A program made the translations under genes and the position numbers. DNA of 64,000 nucleotides, taken from positions 18,089 through 82,088 of the IMG/VR virus record IMGVR_UViG_3300043403_000102; one strand, given 5' to 3'. Each line of letters opens with the position of its first letter. The stretch's first letter is position 1. The stretch comes from a virus. Under the pieces are notes generated by a model. That model did no database searches, had not been told where the DNA came from, and saw nothing but the letters and a program-made list of their open reading frames with translations. Below are positions 11,187 through 26,337 of this stretch, in pieces.

Positions 11187-11960
11187 TCAACGTACATTGA
11201 TGTTGGCGAAGGACGGTCCCGTGTTGCTCGCCTGAGCAGCCCCGCCCCAACGGGACATCGCCTCGCGGCAGAACCACATTGCCATGACGGTGTCGGCCTG
11301 CCCGCTCATGGGGTAGTTGTTGACCTCGGTGGTCCAGACGCACCAGCCGCACTGACAGGTCGGGGGGTGGCCCTCGAACTCGTCGGCGGGGATGACCCAG
11401 GCCTTGTTGGCGAACTCGACTTCTAGGCTGGGCAGGCCGACGTCGACCTTGTGCTTGTTGGCCCCGGTGGTGAAGCTTTCGATCTTGTACCAGAACGAGG
11501 CATCGACGCCGCCGACGTTCCGAATCCAGTCGATGATGGACTGCTGGTATCCGTTGTTCTCGACCATGATGTGCCGCACGTTCGGGTAGCTGGCGTGCAT
11601 CTGGGCCAGGTTCCGGGCGGTCTCGGGGCTGGTCCAGGCACCCCTTCGGATCTCCAGAGGGTAGCGGCGCTGGGTCGTGGGGTCGATAGACGCGGCAAAG
11701 ATGACGTTACCGGCCCGCGTGGCCCCTGCCAAGTCGACACCCATGAACGTGGGCCAGCCGCTGCGCTGGATATTCCCCAGGGCCACGCCGTGGCTGTAGC
11801 AGTTCTTGAAGCTCGGGAACAGCCGCTCCTCGTCCGTGAAGGCGCGCATCTGGAACCCACGGGCAAAGCTGCGGGGGTTCTCCTGCTGCTCCCTGCGAAG
11901 GCGGTCGGCGGGCCAATGCTCCCAAGGAGCCAGGGCAGGCAGCCGGTGCGTGTGGTTCAT
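11187..11960 (-). CDS. terL: Terminase large subunit, C-terminal nuclease part (separate gene)
   Basis: WPADRL...SFARGFQ lid segment, RNase H-like GVDLA, VENNGYQ and DTVMAMW motifs. No Walker motifs. Confidence 0.8.
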   Translation of the reverse strand: MNHTHRLPALAPWEHWPADRLRREQQENPRSFARGFQMRAFTDEERLFPSFKNCYSHGVALGNIQRSGWPTFMGVDLAGATRAGNVIFAASIDPTTQRRYPLEIRRGAWTSPETARNLAQMHASYPNVRHIMVENNGYQQSIIDWIRNVGGVDASFWYKIESFTTGANKHKVDVGLPSLEVEFANKAWVIPADEFEGHPPTCQCGWCVWTTEVNNYPMSGQADTVMAMWFCREAMSRWGGAAQASNTGPSFANINVR

Positions 11961-12199
11961 TCCGTCAGTGTAACAACTGTCGTGACCGATGCCCGGAACT
12001 GCAGGAGCAACGCATCGATGAAGGGCTTCCCGTCTTTGGGAGCCACGACACCTCCTGCAGCCATGCTGTAAATCCCGTCATCCATGTCAGCGGAGAACTC
12101 AGGGTCATTGTAGGTCGCTTCGACCGTTCCGTCCTTCAGCAGCTCGAAGGAAGCCAGGCACTCGGGGGACTCGCCAACGGTCATCACGTTGTAGGTCAT
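11957..12199 (-). CDS. Small acidic protein, possible immunity partner of the upstream kinase
   Basis: 80 aa, translationally coupled (ATGA) to the end of the kinase-domain gene. Function is inference. Confidence 0.45.
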   Translation of the reverse strand: MTYNVMTVGESPECLASFELLKDGTVEATYNDPEFSADMDDGIYSMAAGGVVAPKDGKPFIDALLLQFRASVTTVVTLTE

Positions 12200-22852: not shown

Positions 22853-25480
22853 TCATGTGTGCAATTTCCGAGTGAGCCTTGCTATGCGAAGGCACTCCTC
22901 GCAGATGTGAATGTCGATCGACGGCTCCACCGCGTAAGCCCACTTCAAAGCGACGAAGTCCCCGCACAGCGTTTTGAAGTGACTGAGTATCGGGTTATGC
23001 CCTAGGGGTTCGCTGCTGAAGTGGTAGTCCTGCGCAAGGTCAGCACGCATCCTGCGGGCAGCCTTCTCCTCCTTGGTCATGGTATCTTGCTCCGGGTTCT
23101 TAGGCGGCCTTCGGATAGGTGCGCACAGTCTGAGCACATCGTGTTACTCCGACCTGCAGGCATCGTGTAAGCTGACCACTGCAGCGGAGCGATGTCCCCG
23201 CATAGCGTGCGAAAATAGCCCGAGTGCAGATTGACGCTCGGGTGTTGATGGTGGGTGTAATGATAAAGCCGCGTGAGCTCTGCGCGCATCGAACACGCAG
23301 ACAGGGCCTCCGCGGTCATACTGCTTCCTTCCTGTAAACTGTAGGGTCTCTTTCACCACGGGCCAAACGTTCGCAATCCAGGCACAAATCATCAGCCCTC
23401 AACCTTGACGTGGGTGTTGCATATAGAACGGACCACTCAACGGGGACAATGTCCCCACAAAGGGTCTTAAAGTAGCGAGACATACCGCTGTGGTACGTAT
23501 CCCTGCGCTGACTGAAGTGATACACCCTTACAAGGTCCGCGTGCATCCTGCGGGCGGCCTTCTCTTCCTCGGTCAAGGCCATGTGATCTGCCCTGGTATC
23601 CGTTCACCGACTACCACGCGCGCGCAGTCAGGGCACATCTGGTCGGAGGCGTTGACCGTGTTTGGGTACGAACAGACCCAGCGCGATGGAATAAGCACCC
23701 CGCACTTCGAGCGAAAGAAGTGCCCTTCCATCGCCGGGATGGCGATGTCGGCGTAGTGGTAGACCTCGGCCATGTTCGCCGTCATTAACGACACTCGAAA
23801 GTCTTGGTTGGTGATCATAAACCTCTGCCCACAAGCCCGCCCATCAGGATGCTGTAACACAGGGGGCAGATTAGGTCGGCCAAGATCCTGTCCTTCGATT
23901 TAATCCAGGGGCCCCTAGGCACGTACGCTTCACACCAGGCCCTATAGAACGCTTGGCCCTCGTCGTTGTACATGGCAGGGTAGCCCATCCAGATGTGGAC
24001 GACCTGAGCCAACTCGGCTTCCATCGTGAACTTGACGGCGTCGAAGTCCGCGATGGCTTGGGTGGAGTACTTAGGTGGTGGCGAGCCCATGCCTTGTATT
24101 TAGGGCAGCCATTCAGGTTTACCCAGGGAACGAGGCACACTCGGGGCACACGGGGCTGTCGATGCCCACTGACGTCCCTTCAATCACGAGGACGCCACAC
24201 AGGCCTTCGAGCAGGCCTTGCCCTATCGGACGTAGGCGCAGGTGCCGCACGCGATCCGTGTTCTCAAGGACTCTGCGCATGCGCTCGACCCGATTGCGCG
24301 CTCGACGCTCCTTAGCAGCACGGCGCTTGCGGCTGACGACTTGGATCTTCTGGCTCTTGGTCATCTCAGCGCCCGCCTTGCCATGCAGTCCTCGCATCGA
24401 ACCAGCGTCTCGTCCCACCTCATACGGTGAGGGCTAAGGGTGATCCATTTGCGAGGCACCACGTCACCGCACAGTGTTTCGACAGGCTCGTCGTCAACAT
24501 CCTCAGTGGGCCTTGACGATAATAAATGCTTGGGAAAATGGGACACCCCCACCAACTCAGCACGCATCAAGGACGCGGGGTTCATCTTCATAGGCCCCTC
24601 AAGTAGGGCACATGAATGCGATGGTATTCGCGCAAGCAGTCAGGGCACCAGTACGGGGTCTTGTCTGTGACCTCGTGAAAGCGCGTGGTGATCCACTTGA
24701 ACGTCACGACCTCGCCGCACAAGGTTTCGATGGGGTGCTGGTCATACAGTTGCTCTCGGGACAAGACATGCCTGTGGTAGTGAAATACCCCGCGAAGGTC
24801 GGCACGCATAAGGTTTGCCTGGTCCATCACCATTTCCCCTGCTTCATCCTACGACTGCCGTTCCATCTAGGCAGGCGGGGCACCAGGGGTATTCGAGGGA
24901 CGCGAATCGCTCCTCGGCAGTGACGATGACCCACGAACGGTGAACCACATCGCCGCAAAGCGCTTTCGTAAGTGGTTTCGCCACCTCACCAACGGCAATG
25001 AAGTGCTTCACACCTATGAGGGTATCTCGCATGAGTGCGGCTCGCGCGTTCATCGGGCCTGCCAAAGCTGGAGGCACTCCGCGCACTTGATGTCCTCGGG
25101 GAAGTGCACGATGTGATTGCTCCCTACCGATAACTTTCGCCCACAGTACGCCCATGAAGTTGCGGCGTGCACAGAGTACGCCCTTACGATATGAGGCCCG
25201 GTCAGCAAGGCCTCTACTCGCGCGGCGGCTTTCAGATCATCAAAGGTCATCCGCCCACCGGGTCCTGCCTCTTTATCACCCCGTGAAGGGCCAGGCATTC
25301 GAGGCAGGCGGGCGCTGGCATGATCCACGGGTTGAACTCGGAGAACCACTGAGCCGGGACGTAGTCCCTGCATAGCGTCTCTATGAGGGGGGCTGTGCAG
25401 GCTCGGCCCGGGTACCTCCTGAGATGCTTAACCCCGTTAAGGGCCGCCCGCATAATACCCGCCTGCACCTCCTTGGTCAT
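22853..25480 (-). repeat. Tandem array of 11 paralogous small zinc-finger CDSs (family A, H..C..CxxC, DUF3039-like)
   Basis: ORFs 22853-23080, 23077-23319, 23316-23582, 23573-23818, 23815-24090, 24119-24364, 24361-24591, 24588-24833, 24844-25053, 25050-25250, 25247-25480. Consensus MxAxL..xH...(TL)CG...W...CxxC; mostly ATGA-coupled. Confidence 0.85.
24097..24122 (-). promoter_or_regulatory. Phage promoter GTAAAC-N14-TAAATA (copy 4)
   Basis: Exact motif; ATG 6 nt downstream. Confidence 0.8.
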
Positions 25481-26337
25481 CCGCCCACCAGCTTGAACGG
25501 TGCGGTCTGAGGCCCCCCAACGAGCGGGTACGAGATAGGGTCAGGCGCCCCGATGAGTTCCTGCTCGATGACGTCGCACCCCTGGGATACGCGCTGGATG
25601 AGCGTGCACCAGCCGGGGCGCTGCATAAGGTGATGGGTGGCGTCGTCCAGGTGCCAGGGCGTCCCGATGTACAGCACGCGGGCGTCGGGCTCTAGGCGGC
25701 TCAACCACGTGCTCTCGATGAACTGAAGGACCTTGGACCGCTGGGTGGAGTCGAAGCTGTTCTTCTGGTCGACGACGTCGTCAAAGATCATGATGTCCGC
25801 TCGTCCACCCACGCCCGTCGTGAGGATGCCTCGGGCGTGAATGCTCGGGTCGATGGCCCCGCCCGTACGCTCCAAGTAGATCTCATGGCCCGCCCATTTG
25901 CGACCTCGACGGATGCCAGGGAAAATGCCCTTGAAGGCTGCGGTCTCGATGAGGGCCTTGGCCCTCTCGACTCGTTTGGTGGCGCTGCTGTCGTCGTTGG
26001 TGATGACCTTGATTCGGAGGTTCGGATCTCTACCCAGGGACCACGCGATAAGAGGCACCGCAAGCGTGGAGCTTTTACCGTGACCGAAGGGCGCCATGAT
26101 CATGGCCTTGAGTCCACGGGACCAGCAGTACTTAAGGTGAAGGATCCACTGTATGTGGATGGGGCTTAGGCGCAGTGGATGGCCGTGGTCGTCCTGGACC
26201 ACACGCTCGATGAACAGACCGAGGTCCCCCTTGGCTGCGTCGGAGGCGCGGGCCATCGTTGCATACATCAGCAGGAGCTTGCGCCGCTGGGCCAGGGGCA
26301 ACATGTCCGCGATGGTCGTTGTGGTCGTCTCAGCCAT
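25477..26337 (-). CDS. terL: Terminase large subunit, N-terminal ATPase part (separate gene)
   Basis: Walker A APFGHGKSS, GVGGRAD, Walker B MIFDD, coupling motif IGTPWHLDD. Ends after 286 aa with no nuclease domain. Confidence 0.85.
   Translation of the reverse strand: MAETTTTTIADMLPLAQRRKLLLMYATMARASDAAKGDLGLFIERVVQDDHGHPLRLSPIHIQWILHLKYCWSRGLKAMIMAPFGHGKSSTLAVPLIAWSLGRDPNLRIKVITNDDSSATKRVERAKALIETAAFKGIFPGIRRGRKWAGHEIYLERTGGAIDPSIHARGILTTGVGGRADIMIFDDVVDQKNSFDSTQRSKVLQFIESTWLSRLEPDARVLYIGTPWHLDDATHHLMQRPGWCTLIQRVSQGCDVIEQELIGAPDPISYPLVGGPQTAPFKLVGG

What the first reader, a model, noticed from the sequence alone, without database searches (positions are those of the whole stretch)
11187..26337. 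Terminase large subunit split into two genes about 13.5 kb apart
Seen: the ATPase half (25477-26337; Walker A/B, GTPWH) stops at 286 aa. The nuclease half (11187-11960) begins at the lid segment WPADRL...SFARGFQ. About 35 unrelated ORFs lie between them. Each half is ATGA-coupled to a neighbour at the break, which argues against recent breakage or a sequencing error. I saw no intein ends or in-frame junction repeat. Established: phage TerL is normally one polypeptide. Inference: the motor assembles from two chains, or the halves are joined by an unknown mechanism.
Basis: partly seen in the sequence, partly recalled or inferred. Interest (0 to 1): 0.85.

Follow-up and report, generated by a model that had tools for sequence, protein, structure and literature searches.

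The report
Two-gene phage terminase, halves far apart
This uncultured freshwater phage, like a whole group of its relatives, encodes its DNA-packaging enzyme as two separate genes 13.5 kb apart, so the packaging motor is most likely built from two protein chains instead of the usual one.

Summary
Both ORFs lie on the minus strand. Window 26337..25477 encodes a 286-aa ATPase core, and 11960..11187 encodes a 257-aa chain made of a lid segment plus the nuclease domain. They match consecutive parts of one TerL profile. They are the only terminase matches in the 82-kb, about 96% complete genome.

It is not an artefact. The same break column recurs in many independent metagenomic phages. Of 80 related IMG/VR loci, 43 are fused, 10 are split with adjacent or overlapping genes, and 27 have the nuclease chain alone. 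In 16 of those 27 records the ATPase gene was found 1.75 to 18 kb upstream, or once 1.1 kb downstream.

I found no intein, intron, flanking repeat or recombinase. Catalytic residues are invariant in both chains. A complex model (ipSAE 0.81, best control 0.22) docks the first 42 residues of the nuclease chain onto the ATPase core. This may partly reflect the model's memory of one-chain structures.

Best reading: a non-covalent two-chain terminase, with a fast-changing accessory-gene block between the genes. There are no expression or protein data. Eight literature searches found only intron, intein or bypass cases. This scan has already noted the same kind of thing on other DNA (e1-5796197).

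The parts
25477..26337 (-). TerL ATPase-core chain, 286 aa (Walker A K88, Walker B D186/D187, TPW 226-228). It ends in a beta-strand at about 255-262 that pairs with the other chain in the model.
   Evidence: PDB by sequence: T7 gp19 4bij E 1.8e-14. AF2 pLDDT 94.4. Best fold match PhiV-1 TerL 8dgc_E: Z 22.0, rmsd 3.0, 235 aligned, model 21..280 to chain 2..252.
11187..11960 (-). TerL lid + nuclease chain, 257 aa (RNase H-like nuclease with D76, E134, D223).
   Evidence: AF2 pLDDT 89.0. Foldseek top hits are all terminase nucleases. VIA: D6E 5oe8_B Z 15.9, rmsd 2.4, 159 aligned; 8dgc_E Z 15.5, model 40..249 to chain 294..539.
11838..11960 (-). First 41 codons of the nuclease chain: an N-terminal strand plus two helices (18-27, 29-37). 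This is the lid/linker segment of the ATPase domain, encoded with the nuclease.
   Evidence: It lies before the nuclease fold, which starts at about residue 42. It is colinear with PhiV-1 TerL residues ~253-293 and T4 gp17 ~315-360. In the complex model, residues 1-42 make nearly all contacts with the ATPase chain.
11961..25476 (-). 13,516-nt block between the two genes: 31 or more small same-strand ORFs, fast-changing between relatives.
   Evidence: only 6 of 31 gap ORFs have a blastp match (E <= 1e-5) in the corresponding regions of 7 relatives. annotate a DNA methyltransferase (18451..17735), a transglycosylase-like protein (17708..17286) and DUF3310 (16675..16049). No recombinase or homing endonuclease was found among the 18 ORFs scanned.
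25247..25480 (-). 77-aa ORF whose ATG overlaps the ATPase stop (ATGA).
   Evidence: no Pfam family.
11957..12199 (-). 80-aa ORF whose stop overlaps the nuclease-chain start (ATGA).
   Evidence: no Pfam family.
12196..14706 (-). 836-aa gene in the gap. It is the only large gap gene shared with relatives (G005, G001, G002).
   Evidence: 45-50% identity. Pfam Sod_Fe_C E 4.2e-16, plus weak PI3_PI4_kinase and Peptidase_Mx hits below their cut-offs.
6889..8547 (-). Portal gene. It marks the start of the structural module just downstream of the nuclease chain.
   Evidence: phrog_64 E 5.9e-17. Between it and the nuclease chain lie a 69-aa HTH gene (11154..10945) and a ParB-methyltransferase (10944..9667).

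Best explanation
The phage makes its large terminase as two separate polypeptides that associate without any covalent joining.

Chain 1 is the RecA-type ATPase core. Chain 2 carries the last ~40 residues of the ATPase domain (an edge strand and the helical lid/linker), followed by the RNase H-like nuclease.

The break lies in the loop of a beta-hairpin just before the lid. In the complex, the last strand of chain 1 would pair with the first strand of chain 2, and the lid helices would pack over the P-loop region. This rebuilds an ordinary T7-type TerL protomer, which then forms the packaging ring on the portal (inferred).

The split is old and selected. The space between the two genes has become a variable block of accessory genes.

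Shown: gene architecture, conservation, intact motifs, folds. Inferred: physical association, stoichiometry, activity.
For: 1. The two ORFs match consecutive parts of phrog_38, and nothing else in the ~96% complete genome matches any terminase family.

2. In a MAFFT alignment, all split relatives break at the same column, and fused outgroups (L003, L020, L021) read through it.

3. Survey of 80 related IMG/VR loci: 43 fused, 10 adjacent split, 27 with the nuclease chain alone.
- For 16 of the 27, the ATPase gene was located elsewhere in the record. In 15 it lies upstream at 1.75, 5.5, 8.1, 10.5, 13.0, 13.2, 13.9, 14.2, 15.1, 15.3, 15.3, 15.65, 15.8, 16.9 and 18.0 kb. In one, the 100% complete G002, it lies 1.1 kb downstream.
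- It was not found in 3 partial records (29-67% complete).
- 8 short contigs were not searched as whole records.

4. Database counts:
- 139 ATPase-chain homologues at E <= 1e-10, nearly all about 260-300 aa.
- Among the top 150 representatives for the nuclease chain, 64 are standalone, 74 fused and 12 partial.

5. Invariant K88, D186, D187 and W228 in 104 ATPase chains, and D76, E134 and D223 in 59 nuclease chains.

6. pN/pS is 0.33-0.59 in all 13 comparisons of our genes with relatives, though pS is near saturation. It is 0.11 (pS 0.363, pN 0.039) for the closer pair L009/L010 of far-split nuclease chains.

7. Folds:
- The ATPase chain matches PhiV-1 TerL residues 2..252 (Z 22.0, rmsd 3.0, 235 aligned).
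- The nuclease chain matches residues 294..539 of the same structure (Z 15.5, rmsd 3.3, 188 aligned).
- That leaves ~253-293, the lid, to the first ~40 residues of chain 2.

8. Complex model:
- ipSAE is 0.81 in three runs, against 0.22 for the best of 3 controls.
- The tool states that 58 of 80 solved complexes and 2 of 110 mismatched pairs reach the mark.
- The runs agree in at least 91% of contacts, and the partner's pLDDT is at least 80.
- The interface is chain 2 residues 1-42 against chain 1 residues 81-86, 226-235 and 247-273.
Against: - There is no transcript, proteome or biochemical datum. None of the 24 listed sequencing runs is on record as RNA.
- The complex model resembles solved one-chain terminases, so the pass may come from the model's memory. 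My own alignments were used, so the calibration counts hold only roughly.
- The two genes are not coupled to each other. How equal amounts would be made is unknown.
- Three partial relatives showed no ATPase gene.
- About 4% of the genome may be missing.
- Pfam itself does not place either chain above its cut-off.
Confidence: 0.8

Rival explanations
1. The halves are rejoined into one TerL by protein trans-splicing (split intein), RNA trans-splicing, translational bypass, or programmed excision of the 13.5-kb block.
For: - terL genes elsewhere are known to be interrupted and rejoined. Examples: group I introns with HNH genes in phage CB7 (PMC7344957, passages) and Jug phages (PMC12880540, passages); a fractured gp17-like terminase with a split intein (PMC2677866, passages); UUA bypass in phage Hau3 (PMC10732093, passages).
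- Relatives do carry true inteins inside either chain (P0022, P0123, P0161; G005 and G013).
- One weak excisionase-family hit was seen for the 131-aa gap ORF (phrog_16544, E 0.00094).
Against: - 286 + 257 aa align colinearly with 563-570-aa fused relatives, so no spare residues remain for intein halves.
- Close relatives have the two ORFs overlapping by a few bases in different frames, each with its own start. No intron is needed there.
- Rfam finds nothing in 10500-27500 at E <= 0.1.
- No direct or inverted repeat pair brackets the two break points.
- No recombinase was found among the 18 of 31 gap ORFs scanned.
- Contigs of four other freshwater runs show no joint across the block, and one contig bridges 25477 with no differences.
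- In G002 the nuclease gene precedes the ATPase gene, which no simple splice or excision would mend.
Confidence: 0.05
2. The two proteins no longer work as one enzyme. The ATPase chain alone drives packaging, and the nuclease chain acts on its own, or another nuclease, such as the HNH protein at 5566..4712, cuts the DNA.
For: - The genes sit in different gene modules 13.5 kb apart, and each is coupled to a different small ORF.
- An HNH endonuclease lies in the head module.
- The order and spacing of the halves are free to change.
Against: - The nuclease chain keeps the ATPase-domain lid segment, which has no evident use away from the ATPase core.
- All nuclease metal-ligand residues are invariant.
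- Both chains are present, apart from each other, in 16 of the 19 records with the nuclease chain alone that were searched whole, and the misses are partial records.
- The complex model passes its controls.
- Split and fused states interchange often on the tree, which implies they are near-equivalent.
Confidence: 0.1
3. Assembly artefact: a chimeric contig or a sequencing error created the apparent split.
For: The record is a metagenome assembly. The public contigs laid on it are short and of low depth, and no listed piece spans the whole interval.
Against: - The same architecture is seen in at least 16 other independently assembled records from different samples, with different gap contents.
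- Six runs hold half or more of the sampled words of the stretch.
- Contigs from four runs other than the possible source samples match at 99% or more for most pieces and show no joints.
Confidence: 0.02

Closest known systems
One-chain T7-type large terminase (T7 gp19 'DNA maturase B', PDB 4bij/4bil; PhiV-1 TerL, PDB 8dgc chain E)
   Same: Same family by profile (phrog_38; 4bij E 1.8e-14) and by fold (Z 22.0 for the ATPase chain, Z 15.5 for the nuclease chain). All ATPase and nuclease motifs are present.
   Different: One polypeptide there. Here there are two genes 13.5 kb apart, with the backbone broken between the ATPase core and its lid segment, equivalent to about residue 252/253 of PhiV-1 TerL.
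[quoted passage not shown] It is cited in PMC10448857, introduction passage read. The name Aeh1 nrdA is recalled, not from a call.
   Same: An essential phage enzyme is encoded as two peptides that keep their function without being rejoined.
   Different: There the pieces flank a single homing endonuclease gene. Here no endonuclease was found in the gap, the gap is 13.5 kb with 31 or more genes, and the state is shared by a large clade.
terL interrupted by group I introns with HNH genes (phage CB7, PMC7344957; Jug phages, PMC12880540; ICP1, PMC10448857; passages read)
   Same: The terminase reading frame appears as separate ORFs in the DNA.
   Different: Those are spliced at the RNA level into one protein. 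Here there is no intron signal, and the adjacent-gene relatives have overlapping stop and start codons.
Terminase inteins and the 'fractured' gp17-like terminase with a split intein (PMC2677866, passages; actinophage intein survey, bioRxiv 10.1101/2025.01.02.630785, passages)
   Same: Two terminase ORFs in metagenomic phage DNA. Inteins do occur inside either chain in some relatives.
   Different: No intein halves lie at this break. The chains are colinear with fused relatives, with no extra residues.
Translational bypassing in the Streptomyces phage Hau3 terminase gene (PMC10732093, passages)
   Same: A terminase frame broken in the DNA yet read into a working product. A likely small hop exists in relatives L012-L015 (see Noticed in passing).
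   Different: Bypass covers about 10 nt, not 13.5 kb. In this window the nuclease gene has a plain frame at that site.
Herpesvirus large terminase gene (HSV-1 UL15) with two exons around other genes (recalled, not from a call; the pUL15 nuclease is a fold match, 6m5u/4iox)
   Same: Terminase coding sequence separated by kilobases that hold other genes.
   Different: The exons are spliced to one protein. The intervening genes there are on the other strand (recalled).

Membership tests
T7-type large terminase (phrog_38; T7 gp19 / PhiV-1 TerL) | Profile match to the family | tested here: met
   phrog_38 E 3.8e-37 (profile 266-471) and E 1.3e-11 (profile 489-628). A1 profile against 4bij E 1.8e-14 and 8dgc E 5.8e-14.
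T7-type large terminase (phrog_38; T7 gp19 / PhiV-1 TerL) | P-loop ATPase with Walker A lysine, Walker B acidic pair and the TxW coupling motif | tested here: met
   K88, D186, D187 and W228 are invariant in 104 chains. The fold matches the TerL ATPase domains of PhiV-1, T4, P74-26 and HK97.
T7-type large terminase (phrog_38; T7 gp19 / PhiV-1 TerL) | RNase H-like nuclease domain with three acidic metal ligands | tested here: met
   D76, E134 and D223 are invariant in 59 chains. Z is 14-16 to the terminase nuclease domains of D6E, G20c, HK97, PhiV-1, P22 and T4.
T7-type large terminase (phrog_38; T7 gp19 / PhiV-1 TerL) | ATPase and nuclease on one polypeptide | tested here: not met
   There are two ORFs with their own starts and stops, 13,516 nt apart. 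No fused copy exists in the genome.
T7-type large terminase (phrog_38; T7 gp19 / PhiV-1 TerL) | DNA packaging and cutting activity on a portal | not testable with these tools
   Needs biochemistry or genetics. A portal gene is present at 8547..6889.
Pfam Terminase_6N / Terminase_6C | Score above Pfam's gathering cut-off | tested here: not met
   Terminase_6N scores 13 bits against a cut-off of 22. The nuclease chain has no Pfam hit.
Split-intein 'fractured gene' | N-intein at the end of the first ORF and C-intein at the start of the second | tested here: not met
   The chains are colinear with fused relatives and no extra residues remain. No intein family appeared in the Pfam scan of either chain.
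Intron-interrupted terL | Self-splicing intron RNA between the exons | tested here: not met
   No Rfam match in 10500-27500 at E <= 0.1. Relatives have overlapping stop and start codons between the two ORFs. Rfam holds only described families.
Translational bypass or frameshift (T4 gene 60 / Hau3 type) | The two frames lie within tens of nucleotides on one mRNA | tested here: not met
   The separation is 13,516 nt with 31 or more ORFs.
Gene split by a homing endonuclease gene | A homing endonuclease gene lies between the pieces | tested here: inconclusive
   None was found among the 18 of 31 gap ORFs scanned with PHROGs or Pfam. 13 small ORFs were not scanned, and an ancestral endonuclease could have been lost.

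The most novel reading that the evidence does not exclude
The break is used, not merely tolerated. The ATPase core would be inert until the lid-nuclease chain, encoded at the head of the late structural module, supplies the lid in trans. Motor activation would then be timed by expression of the second gene. The interval between two essential, co-dependent genes would serve as a protected landing zone where accessory and anti-defence genes turn over. Examples are an Acb2/Tad1-domain gene in the gap of L017, and methyltransferases and microprotein arrays in the gap here.
Probability: 0.2. Interest if true: 0.8.

Novelty: new variant of a known kind. Interest (0 to 1): 0.66.

Why it matters
TerL is the hallmark gene of tailed phages. 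It is used to recognise viral contigs, to build phage trees and to infer the packaging strategy, and it is taken to be one chain.

Here a sizeable clade of 80-93-kb environmental phages keeps it as two genes many kilobases apart. The sources that give the ATPase halves a name call them only 'hypothetical protein'. Pipelines can therefore miss or mis-score them.

For mechanism, nature has cut the motor between the ATPase core and its lid. If the chains reassemble, they give a ready-made system in which ATPase core, lid and nuclease can be expressed, mutated and titrated separately. That would let one ask how ATP hydrolysis is coupled to DNA cutting.

For evolution, split and fused states changed at least 11 to 24 times among 139 representatives. 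This point in the fold is therefore unusually tolerant of a break, and the gap has become a hot spot of gene turnover.

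Tried and rejected
- Misassembly: rejected because of the many independent records with the same architecture.
- Intein: rejected on colinearity.
- Intron: Rfam found nothing at E <= 0.1.
- Excision: the repeat finder on 11000-27000 gave no pair bracketing 11960 and 25477. The promoter and terminator scan was at the chance level: 4 promoters found against 3.6 expected, and 10 terminators against 12.2.
- Second terminase: none found.
- Deposited phages: the nuclease chain has no tblastn match among 50,697 records at E <= 1e-3. 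The ATPase chain hits only distant relatives at under 31% identity. I checked two of these, Celeribacter phage P12053L and Microbacterium phage Kozie. Each is annotated with a single long terminase gene, of 1,545 and 1,641 nt.
- Host: genome contigs gave one hit, an 11-kb contig binned with a Candidatus Xenobia MAG. That is too thin to name a host.
- RNA: no RNA holder was listed among the 24 runs.
- Read laying: no piece shown in table 8 bridges 11960, and 95 records were not shown. Parts without cover are not evidence.
- PDB by sequence with the nuclease profile: no hit at E <= 0.01. Fold search was used instead.
- dN/dS proper could not be computed for most pairs because pS is at or near saturation, so pN/pS is reported.
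- Names: the listing of cluster members returned no names or accessions for six NCBI-derived relatives.

Literature:
- 'split terminase' gave 0 papers.
- Seven further term sets gave no description of an unspliced two-gene TerL.
- The library holds open-access papers and bioRxiv only, and supplements are closed, so a mention in a supplement or a subscription journal cannot be excluded.
- My recollection that some annotation lists carry separate 'ATPase domain' and 'nuclease domain' terminase names could not be checked.

Full report
**What is there**

The window is bases 18089-82088 of an 82,088-bp IMG/VR virus record. The record is linear and CheckV estimates it as 96% complete. Nearly all genes run on the minus strand.

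Window 26337..25477 encodes a 286-aa protein with Walker A (APFGHGKS, K88), Walker B (IMIFDD) and GTPWH. Window 11960..11187 encodes a 257-aa protein that begins ...WEHWPADRL...SFARGFQ.

- PHROGs places both in phrog_38 (terminase large subunit, 760 positions). The first matches profile positions 266-471 (E 3.8e-37) and the second 489-628 (E 1.3e-11).
- Pfam is weak. Terminase_6N scores 13 bits against a cut-off of 22, and the second chain has no hit.
- A six-frame search of the whole record with phrog_38 finds only these two places.
- PF03237 finds only the first. PF03354, PF04466 and PF05876 find nothing.
- The gap is 13,516 nt. It holds 31 same-strand ORFs of 45 aa or more with coding-like GC3. 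The raw ORF list allows about 35.

**Gene order on the minus strand**

- DNA polymerase (38001..35392)
- SbcD/SbcC (32873..30043)
- ATPase chain
- the gap
- nuclease chain
- a 69-aa HTH gene
- a ParB-methyltransferase (10944..9667)
- portal (8547..6889)
- an HNH endonuclease and a MuF-like head protein

The nuclease chain therefore sits where a terminase gene normally sits, at the head of the structural module. The ATPase chain sits at the end of the replication genes.

**Is it an artefact?**

No. A scan of IMG/VR with the nuclease chain and with a small alignment of it returned 80 related loci. I classed them with profiles of both chains.

- 43 are fused in one ORF.
- 10 are split into two adjacent or overlapping ORFs.
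- 27 have the nuclease chain with no ATPase within 1 kb upstream. One of these, L054, has no upstream flank.

For 19 of the 27, the whole record was searched.

- In 16 the ATPase gene was found on the same strand.
- In 15 of these it lies upstream, at 1.75, 5.5, 8.1, 10.5, 13.0, 13.2, 13.9, 14.2, 15.1, 15.3, 15.3, 15.65, 15.8, 16.9 and 18.0 kb.
- In G002, a 100% complete record, it lies 1.1 kb downstream of the nuclease gene.
- It was not found in three partial records (G006 67%, G007 55%, G037 29% complete).
- Eight short contigs were not searched as whole records.

Public freshwater metagenome runs also hold the stretch. Contigs of four runs other than the possible source samples lie on it at 99% or more for most pieces. 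They show no joints, and one 1,259-nt contig bridges the ATPase-side break without a difference. The contigs are short, and none of the pieces shown bridges 11960.

**Where the break lies**

In a MAFFT alignment, every split form breaks at the same column. That column follows ...C..IEQE(L/V).G... and precedes ...LP.W..W..ERL.... Three fused outgroups of 563-570 aa read straight through it.

AlphaFold models of both chains are confident (pLDDT 94.4 and 89.0).

- The ATPase chain matches PhiV-1 TerL (8dgc_E) best: Z 22.0, rmsd 3.0, 235 aligned, model 21..280 onto chain 2..252. It matches T4 gp17 at 101..315.
- The nuclease fold of the second chain starts only at about residue 42. Matches are D6E Z 15.9, 8dgc_E Z 15.5 (model 40..249 onto 294..539) and T4 gp17 360..561.
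- All top Foldseek hits are terminase nucleases.

The first ~40 residues of the second chain therefore correspond to PhiV-1 residues ~253-293 and T4 gp17 ~315-360. This is the small subdomain that closes the ATPase domain. The names 'lid' and 'subdomain II' are recalled, not from a call. The gene is not cut at the classical ATPase/nuclease domain border. It is cut about 40 residues earlier.

**Are both halves functional?**

- In 104 standalone ATPase chains, K88, D186, D187 and W228 are invariant.
- In 59 standalone nuclease chains, D76, E134 and D223 are invariant.
- In all 13 codon comparisons of our genes with relatives, pN is below pS (pN/pS 0.33-0.59), though pS is near saturation.
- For the closer pair L009/L010, both far-split, pS is 0.363 and pN is 0.039, a ratio of 0.11.
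- The big protein collection holds 139 ATPase-chain homologues at E <= 1e-10. Nearly all are 260-300 aa, and those that carry a name are called only 'hypothetical protein'.
- Among the best 150 representatives for the nuclease chain, 64 are standalone, 74 are fused and 12 are partial.
- All 74 fused ones carry the ATPase profile. 64 of the 65 standalone rows (the 64 hits plus the query itself) do not.

**Do the chains bind?**

The one complex job gave ipSAE 0.81, 0.81 and 0.82, against 0.22 for the best of 3 controls.

- The tool states that 58 of 80 solved complexes and 2 of 110 mismatched pairs reach the mark.
- The runs agree in at least 91% of contacts, and the partner's pLDDT is at least 80.
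- Residues 1-42 of the nuclease chain make nearly all contacts.
- Residues 5-12 pair with strand 255-261 of the ATPase chain.
- The two helices (18-37) lie against residues 81-86, next to the P-loop, and 226-235.

This is what a cut in a hairpin loop before the lid would give. The caveat is plain. Solved one-chain terminases look like this, so the pass may be memory of those structures. It shows likeness, not binding. My own alignments were used, so the calibration counts hold only roughly.

**Rejoining mechanisms**

I found no sign of any.

- The chains add up colinearly to the fused forms, so there is no room for intein halves.
- Close relatives have overlapping stop and start codons in different frames.
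- Rfam finds nothing between 10500 and 27500.
- No repeat pair brackets the breaks.
- 18 of the 31 gap ORFs were scanned with PHROGs or Pfam, and none is a recombinase, homing endonuclease or intein. One weak excisionase-family hit (E 0.00094) on a 131-aa ORF is the only hint.
- The reversed order in G002 cannot be mended by simple splicing or excision.

**The gap**

Only 6 of our 31 gap ORFs have a blastp match in the corresponding regions of seven relatives. The one large shared gene is the 836-aa protein (Sod_Fe_C plus weak kinase-like and peptidase-like hits).

The gap here also holds a DNA methyltransferase, a transglycosylase-like protein and DUF3310. Three genes begin with a shared 57-nt leader motif.

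In L017 the 1.75-kb gap starts with a gene carrying an Acb2/Tad1 hairpin domain. The interval behaves as a fast-changing accessory block.

**Evolution**

I built a FastTree tree of the nuclease part of 139 representatives, with the 12 partial rows left out.

- It needs at least 24 changes between split and fused, and 11 of these are forced by well-supported branches.
- The shuffled mean is 46, and 0 of 500 shuffles are as low.
- The smallest well-supported clade that holds our protein has 15 split and 2 fused rows.

The state therefore looks labile, and the far-apart form is typical of our clade. This rests on one quick tree. Some 'split' calls could be frameshift errors in adjacent forms.

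**What is known**

Eight literature searches found interrupted terminase genes only of these kinds:

- group I introns (PMC7344957, PMC12880540, PMC10448857; passages)
- inteins and one split-intein 'fractured' terminase (PMC2677866 and bioRxiv 10.1101/2025.01.02.630785; passages)
- translational bypass (PMC10732093; passages)

The closest parallel in principle is a phage ribonucleotide reductase gene split by a homing endonuclease gene into two working peptides. It is mentioned in PMC10448857 (passage).

I did not find an unspliced two-gene TerL in print. The library is open-access only, and supplements were closed.

This scan's own earlier notes describe the same kind of thing on other DNA. 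They are e1-5796197, another phage with halves about 14 kb apart, and a two-piece terminase around dnaB in Candidatus Enterousia. Those are unchecked AI notes, not publications.

**Verdict**

It is a new variant of a known enzyme, not a new kind of system. All evidence is computational.

Noticed in passing
L013 about 10095-10115 (same in L012, L014); L015 about 10095-10115: In four related contigs (two distinct sequences) the nuclease-chain gene changes frame at ...CGG GGT TAG GT... Both sides show synonymous differences between L013 and L015, so both appear to be translated. If peptidyl-tRNA-Gly leaves GGT, which is followed by the stop TAG, and lands on the GGT or GGC 5 nt further on, the product reads SFERG-FRQSAF. 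That is exactly colinear with the homologues. An 8-bp hairpin ends at the take-off codon. This looks like a +5 translational hop, comparable to T4 gene 60 and the Hau3 terminase. Our window has a plain frame at this site.
   Followed up: partly
G002 = L015/L038 (IMG/VR record of 81,905 bp, 100% complete): The gene order is reversed. The nuclease chain comes first, then a 265-aa ORF, then the ATPase chain 1.1 kb downstream. The homologue of our 69-aa HTH gene follows the ATPase chain.
   Followed up: partly
G005 (L025/L028/L037), G013, and proteins P0022, P0123, P0161, P0128, P0188: True inteins sit inside either chain in some relatives. In the ATPase chain they sit in the Walker A loop (743-aa and 666-aa open frames; P0022 carries Pfam PF14890). 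In standalone nuclease chains (P0123, P0161) they sit just before the last catalytic aspartate motif.
   Followed up: partly
window 20180-20236, 22453-22509, 24067-24123 (minus-strand genes start at 20203, 22476, 24090): A 57-nt motif that ends in the start codon (core GCCCTAAATAC.AGGCATG on the minus strand) heads three genes inside the gap. There are 4 matches in the window against 0.04 expected. It is probably a shared leader or ribosome-site element.
   Followed up: partly
window 12196-14706 (-): An 836-aa protein with an Fe/Mn superoxide dismutase C-terminal domain (E 4.2e-16) plus weak PI3/PI4-kinase-like and metallopeptidase-like hits. It is the only large gap gene conserved in relatives (G005, G001, G002).
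   Followed up: partly
L017:1656-2360 (+): The first gene between the two terminase genes of this relative carries an Acb2/Tad1 hairpin domain (E 3.8e-08, above the cut-off). This is a family of phage anti-defence sponges.
   Followed up: no
window about 15551-22813 and 17604-19196, run X3: Two low-depth (2-4) contig joints with extra letters between the sides were listed only in table 5c of the read laying: 22813 to 15551 and 19196 to 17604. They may be strain variants of the gap or chimeras.
   Followed up: no
G024 (L074) and G034 (L105): Two further odd arrangements. In G024 the ATPase match holds one TGA, and a 0.5-kb gap separates it from the nuclease chain. In G034 the ATPase gene itself is interrupted by about 1.8 kb, and its second part abuts the nuclease chain.
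   Followed up: no
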